Source: Escherichia coli (GTDB lineage: Bacteria > Pseudomonadota > Gammaproteobacteria > Enterobacterales > Enterobacteriaceae). From it: DNA of 64,000 nucleotides. A program made the position numbers. Numbering within the stretch: position 1 is the stretch's first letter; every line of letters starts with the position of its first letter. Below, one piece after another: positions 52,501 through 55,500 of the stretch. Location: the NCBI RefSeq assembly GCF_029227855.1, contig NZ_CP074356.1, one strand, 5' to 3'.

Positions 52501-55500
52501 GCTTTATTTTGTGAATATTTTCGGCAGACGCAACAGGGGGGGATTTGTTCCGGCAGTCTTACAATGGCTGTGTATTTTTTGTACATCAGCGCCAGATAGC
52601 TTTAAAACGCTCTGGAAGGAGCTGGAAAAAATTATAGTGAAATACAAATTGTTTTTTCTTATTTATTTCAGTGAATTAATAAAAATAAAAAGTAATGAAC
52701 AGCACAAAAAGCCCATTAACGGGTGAACAGTGGTGAACAGACGGTGAACAGTCATTACTGCGATTGTTCACCCTTTAACTTACTGTATTACTTATCTTTT
52801 TTCTTATGGTGAACAGAGGTGAACAGTAAAATATAAAAAAACAAACAGTAAGCCGGTTTTTCCTGCGACCTTTTCCTGGCTTGCCGGTCTGAGGATGAGT
52901 CTCCTGTGTCAGGGCTGGCACATCTGCAATGCGTCGTGTTGTTGTCCGGTGTACGTCACAATTTTCTTAACCTGAAGTGACGAGGAGCCGGAAAATGTCT
53001 GACAACACCATCCCTGAATATCTGCAACCCGCGCTGGCACAACTGGAAAAGGCCAGAGCCGCCCATCTTGAGAACGCCCGCCTGATGGATGAGACCGTCA
53101 CGGCCATTGAACGGGCAGAGCAGGAAAAAAATGCGCTGGCGCAGGCCGACGGAAACGACGCTGACGACTGGCGCACGGCCTTTCGTGCAGCCGGTGGTGT
53201 CCTGAGCGACGAGCTGAAACAGCGCCACATTGAGCGCGTGGCACGCCGGGAGCTGGTACAGGAATATGACAATCTGGCCGTGGTGCTGAATTTTGAACGT
53301 GAACGCCTGAAAGGGGCGTGTGACAGCACGGCCACCGCCTACCGGAAGGCACATCATCACCTGCTGAGTCTGTATGCAGAGCATGAGCTGGAACACGCCC
53401 TGAATGAAACCTGTGAGGCGCTTGTCCGGGCAATGCATCTGAGCATTCTGGTACAGGAAAATCCGCTCGCCAACACCACCGGCCATCAGGGCTACGTCGC
53501 ACCGGAAAAGGCTGTCATGCAGCAGGTGAAATCATCGCTGGAACAGAAAATAAAACAGATGCAAATCAGCCTCACCGGCGAGCCGGTTCTCCGGCTGACC
53601 GGACTGTCAGCGGCAACACTCCCGCACATGAATTATGAGGTGGCAGGCACACCGGCACAGCGCAAGGTGTGGCAGGACAAAATAGACCAGCAGGAAGCAG
53701 AGCTTAAGGCCAGAGGGCTGCTGTCATGATTTACTGCCCGTCGTGTGGACATGTTGCTCACACCCGTCGCGCACATTTCATGGACGATGGCACCAAGATA
53801 ATGATTGCACAGTGCCGGAATATTTATTGCTCTGCGACATTTGAAGCGAGTGAAAGCTTTTTCTCTGACTGTAAAGATTCAGGAATGGAATACATTTCAG
53901 GCAAACAGAGATACCGCGATTCACTGACGTCGGCCTCCGGCAGTATGAAACGCCCGAAAAGAATGCTTGTTACCGGATATTGTTGTCGGAGATGTAAAGG
54001 CCTTGCACTGTCAAGAACATCGCGGCGTCTGTCTCAGGAAGTCACCGAGCGTTTTTATGTGTGCACGGATTCGGGCTGTGGTCTGGTGTTTAAAACGCTT
54101 CAGACCATCAACCGCTTCATTGTCCGCCCGGTCACACCGGACGAACTGGCAGAACGCCTGCATGAAAAACAGGAACTGCCGCCAGTACGGTTAAAAACAC
54201 AATCATATTCGCTGCGTCTGGAATGAGGGCTGCCGGTTAACCCCGGCCGTCGCCGCACACCGTATTTTTATTCTTCAGCATGATGAGAAAGAGATAACGA
54301 TGGAAAGCACAGCCTTACAGCAGGCCTTTGACACCTGTCAGAATAACAAAGCAGCATGGCTGCAACGCAAAAATGAGCTGGCAGCGGCCGAACAGGAATA
54401 CCTGCGGCTTCTGTCAGGAGAAGGCAGAAACGTCAGTCGCCTGGACGAATTACGCAATATTATCGAAGTCAGAAAATGGCAGGTGAATCAGGCCGCCGGT
54501 CGTTATATTCGTTCGCATGAAGCCGTTCAGCACATCAGCATCCGCGACCGGCTGAATGATTTTATGCAGCAGCACGGCACAGTACTGGCGGCCGCACTGG
54601 CACCGGAGTTGATGGGCTACAGTGAACTGACGGACATTGCCCGAAACTGTGCCATACAGCGTGCCACAGATGCCCTGCGTGAAGCCCTTCTGTCCTGGCT
54701 TGCGAAGGGGGAAAAAATTAATTATTCCGCACAGGATAGCGACATTTTAACGACCATCGGATTCAGGCCTGACGCGGCTTCGGTGGATGACAGCCGTGAA
54801 AAATTCACCCCTGCGCAGAACATGATTTTTTCGCGTAAAAGTGCGCAACTGGCATCACATCAGTCTGTGTAAAACTCCCCGAAAATCCGTCCGATTTTAC
54901 TGAAAAAAGCCATGCATCGATAAGGTGCATGGCTTTGCATGCGTTTCCCTGCCTCATTTTCTGCAAACCGCGCCATTCCCGGCGCGGTCTGAGCGTGTCT
55001 GTGCAACTGCATTAAAACCGCCCTGCAAAGCGGGCGGGCGAGGCGGGGAAAGCACTGCGCGCACGAGAGTAAAACATTACTCAATTGAAAAATGTAACAT
55101 TCCTCTCTCTCTCGGTGTAATGGTGTTGGGATGAACTAACCGTTCCATTTCAAAACCAAAATCATGATAAGCAGTATTATAAAAAGAGCTTAAAATAAAT
55201 TTCACAAACGTTACCGGACATAATGGTGACGACAATGGTATCCGGCAATTTTTAAACTGACCTAGGGTTAGGTGTGCTGCTGGATGAATAACATCATTAG
55301 CGTCATCAGGGGCATAATCCACTCGTATCGGAACGGGTAAAATTGATTTTTGGACAATGTCAGCATAAAAGTTGCTTTCGTCTAAATATAACTCAGGGTC
55401 ATTCTGGAATGATTCGTAATTAGGCGCGGGGAAATAACATAGTCTTTCTTTTACAAGTTTCATTCGACGATCAAACTGAAATAAAAGATGGAGTAACCCA

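What the first reader, a model, noticed from the sequence alone, without database searches (positions are those of the whole stretch)
52905..52960. Two TGT-N12-ACA dyads upstream of sid
P2/P4 late promoters are activated by Ogr/Delta binding to a TGT-N12-ACA dyad centred near -55. Two such dyads (52905-52922 and 52943-52960) precede the sid ATG at 52995; the upstream one has the more plausible spacing. Delta-dependent late expression of sid-delta-psu therefore looks retained.
Basis: partly seen in the sequence, partly recalled or inferred. Interest (0 to 1): 0.25.

Follow-up and report, generated by a model that had tools for sequence, protein, structure and literature searches.

The report
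Known P4 sid late promoter
The two short inverted repeats are real, but they are simply the already well-studied late promoter of satellite phage P4, copied base for base in a P4-like prophage of E. coli, so the finding is correct and ordinary.

Summary
The bare motif is not enriched in the window: 12 matches against 14.1 expected.

The real evidence is homology. Window 52809-53000 is 100% identical to phage P4, and window 47703-55036 is 98.1% identical to P4 4291-11624. This is therefore P4's own Psid in front of intact sid, delta and psu.

The -10-like hexamer CACAAT (52957-62) implies a start near 52969. That centres the upstream dyad at about -55.5, the same position I computed for the annotated P2 PO and PP promoters. 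The downstream dyad then sits at about -17.5.

In 20 of 20 sid loci from eight genera, the upstream dyad is exact and at a fixed distance from the ATG. Its extended form is TGTGyCA-N4-TGsCACA, with a freely varying centre.

The downstream dyad is exact only in the P4 clade. Elsewhere the -10 is CAGAAT, which gives TGT-N12-AGA. Its presence coincides with the two-finger 166-aa Delta, but that is only one phylogenetic contrast.

Delta keeps all eight zinc cysteines and carries one private change, P116S.

Verdict: observation confirmed, interpretation supported, already known, low interest.

The parts
52905..52922 (+). Upstream dyad TGTGTCA-GGGC-TGGCACA. This is the Delta/Ogr activator site of Psid, centred about -55.5 from the inferred start.
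   Evidence: Exact motif. 100% identical to P4. Exact and at -81.5/-82.5 from the sid ATG in 20/20 loci. Half-sites invariant while the central 4 nt vary. Rank 1 of 63,983 positions with a matrix from non-P4-clade sites.
52934..52945 (+). Conserved block TCGTGTTGTTGT in the -36 to -25 region. It contains the left TGT of the downstream dyad.
   Evidence: 52934-36 and 52939-45 are invariant in 17 distinct sid upstream sequences.
52943..52960 (+). Downstream dyad TGTCCGGTGTACGTCACA, centred about -17.5 and overlapping the -10 hexamer. It is a P4-clade-specific second site.
   Evidence: Exact motif. Exact only in the window, L006 and P4. All other loci read TGT-N12-AGA at the same position. Weak match to the extended site matrix (rank 69).
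52957..52962 (+). -10-like hexamer CACAAT. It reads CAGAAT in non-P4-clade elements.
   Evidence: 4/6 match to TATAAT, with AAT invariant across loci. No full sigma-70 consensus promoter is found in 52400-53100, as expected for an activator-dependent promoter.
52969..52969 (+). Inferred transcription start of the sid-delta-psu operon (+/- 1-2 nt).
   Evidence: Inference from the -10 position and from the -55.5 geometry of the annotated P2 promoters. Not measured here. A common population variant, T52968C, lies next to it.
52982..52986 (+). Shine-Dalgarno GAGGA for sid.
   Evidence: Invariant in all aligned loci.
52995..53729 (+). sid, the capsid size-determining scaffold (244 aa).
   Evidence: 241/244 identical to P4 Sid. 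The exact sequence is seen on 58 contigs.
53726..54226 (+). delta, a two-finger Ogr-like transcription activator (166 aa).
   Evidence: 162/166 identical to P4 Delta. Two CX2CX22CX4C motifs. Both halves match P2 Ogr. P116S is private to this copy.
54300..54872 (+). psu, the polarity suppression / capsid decoration protein (190 aa).
   Evidence: 186/190 identical to P4 Psu.
52546..52563 (-). Third TGT-N12-ACA dyad, upstream of vis/orf88 (52176-52442, minus strand). It is the candidate activator site of the divergent late promoter PLL.
   Evidence: Exact motif. Present in P4 and L006 at -111.5/-112.5 from the vis ATG. With CAAAAT as the -10 it would be centred near -55 (my count on the sequence).

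Best explanation
The segment is the late promoter Psid of a P4-type satellite prophage, unchanged from phage P4. The upstream dyad (52905-52922) is the binding site for the zinc-finger activators Delta (from the satellite) and Ogr (from a P2-type helper). It is centred about 55 bp upstream of a start near 52969. From there the bound activator recruits RNA polymerase to a promoter that has a weak -10 (CACAAT) and no usable -35, as a class I activator does through the alpha subunit. This turns on sid-delta-psu. Because delta lies in the operon, expression is self-reinforcing once a helper's Ogr, or read-through, starts it. The downstream dyad (52943-52960) overlaps the -10 and spacer at about -18. 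It is a secondary site specific to the P4 clade and is not needed for the conserved activation mechanism.

Shown here: sequence identity with P4, site geometry relative to the -10, conservation of the upstream dyad, and intact activator and operon.

Inferred: the start position, actual binding, and any role of the second site.
For: - 100% identity of window 52809-53000 with P4 X51522.
- 98.1% identity over 7.3 kb, from crr to cos.
- Sid, Delta and Psu are full length and 98-99% identical to P4.
- Both zinc fingers of Delta are intact.
- The upstream dyad is exact at a fixed distance from the ATG in 20/20 sid loci from Escherichia, Mangrovibacter, Cedecea, Citrobacter, Enterobacter, Tatumella, Raoultella and Superficieibacter. 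Sid identity there falls to 58%.
- The half-sites are invariant and the central 4 nt vary freely, the pattern of a two-half-site protein operator.
- The computed centre of -55.5 equals that of the annotated activator sites of P2 PO and PP relative to their annotated starts.
- No sigma-70 consensus promoter is present, consistent with activator dependence.
- The 76-nt core promoter is exact in 510 E. coli genomes and within 3 mismatches in 467 more. None of six sampled variants touches a dyad base.
- Literature: Ogr binds inverted repeats centred at about -55 and needs contact with the RNA polymerase alpha subunit (PMC3152322). The consensus is TGT-N12-ACA (PMC3931495). Delta is an Ogr homologue, and both activate P2 and P4 late genes (PMC8628076; PMC7552001).
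Against: - No transcript or binding data could be produced or read here. The primary P4 promoter papers (Van Bokkelen et al. 1991; Julien and Calendar 1995) are not in the held library, so the start at 52969 is inferred.
- The bare motif is not enriched in the window.
- The window's Delta carries a private P116S in the second finger loop, with unknown effect.
- No P2-type helper or ogr gene lies in the window, so activity in this strain cannot be judged.
Confidence: 0.92

Rival explanations
1. The downstream dyad (52943-52960) is not a working regulatory site. It is a by-product of two elements conserved for other reasons: the TTGTTGT block near -30 and a -10 hexamer that happens to read CACAAT in the P4 clade.
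For: The left TGT lies inside an invariant block that is present whether or not the right half is ACA. The right ACA exists only because of one C/G difference in the -10 hexamer, and it is absent from 17 of 20 sid loci. Beyond TGT and ACA the site matches the extended consensus poorly (rank 69, score 2.6 against 20.5). About 0.12 such close pairs are expected by chance in a window this size.
Against: From my own recollection, which I could not check here, Julien and Calendar 1995 reported a Delta footprint at a second site centred near -18 in Psid. The exact dyad is kept in about 1000 E. coli copies, and a sampled variant at 52942 falls just outside it. However, these copies are all recent relatives. 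It co-occurs with the two-finger Delta.
Confidence: 0.35
2. The downstream dyad is a functional second Delta operator. By overlapping the -10 and spacer it limits or times Psid, acting as negative autoregulation of an operon that encodes its own activator.
For: It lies at about -17.5, where a bound protein would compete with RNA polymerase. It is a perfect core motif in a promoter whose operon contains delta. It is found only where Delta is the tandem two-finger form.
Against: It was not tested here. It is not conserved outside the P4 clade, so it is not part of the core mechanism. It matches the extended consensus weakly. The co-occurrence with two-finger Delta is a single evolutionary contrast. 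A search for two-finger Deltas found none outside the tight P4 clade.
Confidence: 0.3
3. The dyads belong to the replication origin rather than to a promoter, because the GenBank rep_origin feature of P4 (9086-9809) spans this segment.
For: The P4 record annotates the origin across the whole vis-sid interval and into sid.
Against: The annotated origin repeats (type 1 GGTGAACAG iterons and type 2 repeats) all lie upstream; the last type 1 repeat corresponds to about window 52825. The dyads have a different sequence. The upstream dyad keeps a fixed distance to the sid ATG across genera and matches the geometry of P2 late promoters, which are not origins.
Confidence: 0.03

Closest known systems
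Psid, the sid late promoter of satellite bacteriophage P4 (X51522 / NC_001609, about 9493-9582)
   Same: Base-for-base identical from 186 nt upstream of the sid ATG through the start codon. Same downstream operon, sid-delta-psu. Same divergent arrangement with vis/PLL and the ori iterons.
   Different: Nothing differs in the promoter itself. Delta differs from the P4 record at four residues, and only P116S is private to this copy. The element has a different integrase (inserted beside tRNA-Sec) and different cargo. It also has a different allele of the segment upstream of PLL.
P2 late promoters PP, PO, PV and PF (Ogr-dependent)
   Same: An inverted repeat centred at about -55.5 from the start, a weak -10 ending in AAT, and no -35 consensus. 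The left half-site TGTGTCAG is shared with PO.
   Different: In the P2 RefSeq record none of the four has a perfect TGT-N12-ACA: PO and PF read TGT-N12-CCA, and PP is the complement of the PO site. Psid has a perfect dyad plus a second one at about -18.
Psid of single-finger-Delta P4-like satellites (for example E. coli TOE3, Citrobacter, Raoultella; phiR73-type by my recollection)
   Same: The same -55 dyad at the same distance from the ATG, the same TTGTTGT block, the same Shine-Dalgarno sequence and the same operon order.
   Different: The -10 is CAGAAT, so there is no second exact dyad. Delta is 75-87 aa with one finger.

Membership tests
P4 Psid promoter | Sequence identity with the P4 sid upstream region | tested here: met
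   100% identity over window 52809-53000 against X51522.
P4 Psid promoter | Lies immediately upstream of an intact sid-delta-psu operon | tested here: met
   sid 244 aa, delta 166 aa and psu 190 aa, all full length and 98-99% identical to P4.
P4 Psid promoter | Transcription depends on Delta or Ogr | not testable with these tools
   Needs a reporter or transcript assay.
Ogr/Delta-responsive P2-type late promoter | TGT-N12-ACA-type inverted repeat centred about -55 from the transcription start | tested here: inconclusive
   The centre is -55.5 relative to a start inferred from the -10-like CACAAT. This is the same as the P2 PO and PP sites relative to their annotated starts. The P4 start itself could not be read from a record or a paper.
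Ogr/Delta-responsive P2-type late promoter | No functional sigma-70 consensus (poor -35), hence activator dependence | tested here: met
   The consensus scan finds no promoter-like site in 52400-53100. The -10 matches TATAAT at 4/6.
Ogr/Delta-responsive P2-type late promoter | Cognate activator with a CX2CX22CX4C zinc finger is available | tested here: met
   Delta at 53726-54226 has two such motifs, and both halves align to P2 Ogr. No helper ogr lies in the window.
Ogr/Delta-responsive P2-type late promoter | The operator is conserved in homologous promoters while flanks and spacer diverge | tested here: met
   20/20 loci exact. Half-sites invariant and the central 4 nt variable. 46% of aligned positions are invariant overall.
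Ogr/Delta-responsive P2-type late promoter | Activation requires the C-terminal domain of the RNA polymerase alpha subunit | not testable with these tools
   Known for Ogr from the literature (PMC3152322). Not testable here.
Second Delta site of Psid (about -18) | Exact TGT-N12-ACA overlapping the -10 and spacer | tested here: met
   52943-52960, centred at -17.5.
Second Delta site of Psid (about -18) | Conserved across P4-like satellites | tested here: not met
   Exact only in the P4 clade (window, L006, P4). It reads TGT-N12-AGA in the other 17 loci.

The most novel reading that the evidence does not exclude
The -18 dyad is an innovation of the P4 clade, made by a single G-to-C change in the -10 hexamer (CAGAAT to CACAAT). 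It arose together with the tandem duplication that gave the two-finger 166-aa Delta. The two-finger protein would use the second operator to autoregulate or time Psid, a circuit that single-finger-Delta satellites lack.
Probability: 0.2. Interest if true: 0.3.

Novelty: already known. Interest (0 to 1): 0.08.

Why it matters
It matters little beyond annotation. It shows that this prophage carries an unaltered P4 late-expression switch, an intact activator and an intact cos site, so it is probably a mobilisable satellite rather than a decayed remnant. The comparative result may be of small use to people who engineer P4 cosmids or study how satellite regulation evolved. That result is an invariant extended operator TGTGyCA-N4-TGsCACA at -55 in all sid promoters, with a second dyad found only alongside the two-finger Delta.

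Tried and rejected
- **Motif statistics.** I tested the bare TGT-N12-ACA motif as evidence and rejected it. The window has 12 matches against 14.1 expected, and pair proximity is only mildly unusual.
- **Primary literature.** I tried to read the primary P4 promoter papers: Julien and Calendar 1995, Van Bokkelen 1991, Reiter 1998, Halling and Calendar 1990, and the Lindqvist 1993 and Christie and Dokland 2012 reviews. None is held. One paper search returned only unrelated hits.
- **Annotated start site.** I looked for an annotated Psid start in X51522, NC_001609 and X02534 and found none. X02534 carries only an old predicted '-10' that falls inside the upstream dyad.
- **Independent two-finger Delta clades.** I searched for other clades with a two-finger Delta to test the co-variation. 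Only the tight P4 clade and fragments were found.
- **Second dyad at PLL.** I looked for a -18-type second dyad at PLL and found none.
- **Helper phage.** I checked for a P2-type helper in the window. Only the cos site matches P2.

Full report
**Observation**

The sequence and a pattern search confirm two exact TGT-N12-ACA matches:
- 52905-52922, TGTGTCAGGGCTGGCACA
- 52943-52960, TGTCCGGTGTACGTCACA

The ATG of a 244-codon ORF is at 52995. The motif alone carries almost no information. The 64-kb window has 12 matches against 14.1 +/- 4.0 expected from dinucleotide shuffles. About 0.12 pairs this close together are expected by chance. Three of the 12 matches do cluster in 52546-52960.

**What the region is**

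A BLAST of 52400-53100 against phage records hits phage P4 at 93% over the full length. A pairwise alignment shows that all differences lie upstream of 52809. From 52809 to 53000 the window is 100% identical to P4 X51522.

Across the whole element, window 47703-55036 aligns to P4 4291-11624 (crr through the right cos end) at 98.1%. Protein identities to P4 are:

| Protein | Identical residues |
|---|---|
| Sid | 241/244 |
| Delta | 162/166 |
| Psu | 186/190 |
| Vis (orf88) | 86/88 |
| Alpha | 771/777 |

The 19-nt cohesive end GGCGAGGCGGGGAAAGCAC is intact at 55037-55055. The P4 immunity RNA (Rfam C4, 51832-51919) is also present.

P4's left arm is replaced. It carries a Helicase + DUF2290 pair (PADLOC PDLC03002, 2e-265; PDLC02999, 2e-77). 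It also carries a 396-aa integrase next to tRNA-Sec. The locus is therefore a P4-type satellite prophage with P4's own regulatory and helper-exploitation core, and the finding is P4's late promoter Psid.

**Geometry**

No sigma-70 consensus promoter is found in 52400-53100. The only -10-like hexamer in the right place is CACAAT at 52957-62. That implies a start near 52969 and a 26-nt leader. With this start the upstream dyad is centred at -55.5 and the downstream one at -17.5.

As a calibration I used the P2 RefSeq record, which annotates activator sites and transcription starts. The PO and PP sites are centred at -55.5 and the PF site at -57.5. In that record none of the four P2 late promoters has a perfect TGT-N12-ACA: PO and PF read TGT-N12-CCA. 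Psid has the better operator.

The literature available here gives three supporting points:
- Ogr binds inverted repeats centred at about -55 and works through the RNA polymerase alpha subunit (PMC3152322).
- The consensus is TGT-N12-ACA (PMC3931495).
- Delta is an Ogr homologue, and both activate P2 and P4 late genes (PMC8628076; PMC7552001).

The primary footprinting and mutational papers on Psid are not held. From my own recollection, Julien and Calendar 1995 found Delta footprints at about -55 in all six late promoters, plus a second site near -18 in Psid. I could not verify that here. The computed -17.5 position agrees with it.

**Phylogenetic footprint**

I aligned Sid homologues and used the alignment to retrieve 18 sid loci from one-genome-per-species contigs. 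They come from Mangrovibacter, Cedecea, Citrobacter, Enterobacter, Tatumella, Raoultella and Superficieibacter, plus one P4-identical contig. Sid identity ranges from 58% to 99%. I added a diverged E. coli element.

In 20 of 20 loci an exact TGT-N12-ACA lies 81.5 or 82.5 nt (centre) upstream of the sid ATG. An alignment of the 17 distinct sequences shows the following:
- The half-sites TGTG.CA and TG.CACA are invariant, while the central four bases vary freely (GGGC, TTTT, GAAC, GCAC, TTTC, TGCC, TGTT).
- A block TCG..TTGTTGT (52934-45) is invariant.
- The AAT of the -10 is invariant.
- The Shine-Dalgarno sequence is invariant.
- Overall, 46% of positions are invariant.

A weight matrix built only from the eight distinct non-P4-clade sites ranks 52905 first of 63,983 window positions, scoring 20.5 against 11.5 for the next best. 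This rank partly reflects homology.

The downstream dyad behaves differently. It is exact only in the P4 clade. Every other locus has TGT-N12-AGA at the same position, because the -10 there is CAGAAT. It scores only 2.6 with the extended matrix, rank 69.

**Population data**

The 76-nt core promoter is exact in 510 of 5426 complete E. coli genomes and within three mismatches in 467 more. Six sampled variants carry T52968C, sometimes with changes at 52864, 52889, 52927 or 52942. None touches a dyad base.

**The activator**

Delta at 53726-54226 is full length, with both CX2CX22CX4C fingers. Three of its four differences from the P4 record (S49C and the 72-73 CG to GS change) are common in natural copies. 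P116S, inside the second finger loop (CTDPGC to CTDSGC), was not seen in the other copies aligned. The exact protein is on record from a single contig. Its effect is unknown.

**A co-variation**

All loci with the second dyad encode the 166-aa two-finger Delta. All loci without it encode a 75-87-aa one-finger Delta. This is one evolutionary contrast only. A search with Delta found no two-finger form outside the tight P4 clade, so the association cannot be tested further with these data.

**Mechanism**

The upstream dyad is the conserved class I-type activator site. Delta or Ogr bound at -55.5 recruits RNA polymerase to a promoter that lacks a -35, switching on sid-delta-psu with positive feedback through delta. 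This is well supported: the sequence identity, geometry and conservation are shown here, and the binding and activation are established knowledge for P4.

The second dyad overlaps the -10 and spacer, and its role is open. I give about 0.3 to a limiting or autoregulatory operator and about 0.35 to an incidental by-product. The remainder goes to a bound site with no measurable effect or some other role.

**Verdict**

The feature is already known, and interest is low.

Noticed in passing
window 52588-52640: In a region otherwise about 98% identical to P4, a patch of about 50 nt upstream of PLL is replaced. P4's three 'ori type 2 repeats' (ACTTAAAG..., which resemble the TTAAAG/CNCA cox-box consensus for P2 Cox binding upstream of PLL quoted in PMC3936717) are absent. 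A different sequence sits there. Both alleles are common: the window type covers the query in 372 E. coli genomes and the P4 type in 438. This could reflect a different helper Cox specificity.
   Followed up: partly
window 55077-57828 (minus strand): Between cos and the integrase, P4's gop-beta-cII is replaced by a 698-aa helicase (PADLOC 'Helicase' PDLC03002, 2e-265) and a 220-aa DUF2290 protein (PDLC02999, 2e-77). This is a candidate anti-phage cargo in the known P4 hotspot.
   Followed up: partly
window 57821-59268: The integrase is 396 aa and has no DNA similarity to P4 int. It lies next to tRNA-Sec at 59174-59268. I did not define the attachment sites.
   Followed up: no
window 54071-54073 (Delta codon 116): A private P116S substitution lies inside the C-X4-C loop of Delta's second zinc finger. 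The seven other natural two-finger Deltas aligned, and P4 itself, have P. The exact protein is recorded from one contig only.
   Followed up: partly
L024 (P2 NC_001895) 3057-3087, 10239-10266, 17555-17583: None of the four annotated P2 late promoters contains a perfect TGT-N12-ACA. PO and PF read TGT-N12-CCA, and PV fits only with a different spacing. The textbook consensus is met exactly by P4 but not by P2.
   Followed up: yes
window 52546-52563; L004-L023 upstream of vis: The PLL-side dyad is exact (N12) only in the P4 clade. Other satellites have TGT...ACA with 11 or 13 nt spacing at the corresponding place, although their Psid dyad keeps N12.
   Followed up: partly
window 55008-55062: The cos site is intact. 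The 19-nt cohesive end GGCGAGGCGGGGAAAGCAC is at 55037-55055, and the flanks match P2 cosR and cosL. The element looks packageable.
   Followed up: yes
window 51832-52117 (minus strand): Rfam C4 antisense RNA (P4 CI immunity RNA) lies at 51832-51919, isrK at 52027-52104 and the c4-a1b1 target at 52065-52117. The P4 immunity system is present.
   Followed up: no
window 52968: T52968C, one base from the inferred transcription start, was present in all six sampled near-identical E. coli copies that differ from the window in the core promoter.
   Followed up: no
L001 808-814 (X02534) = window 52907-52913: The 1980s GenBank record annotates a 'consensus -10 sequence' that falls inside the upstream dyad. 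This is an outdated prediction that could mislead automated annotation.
   Followed up: no
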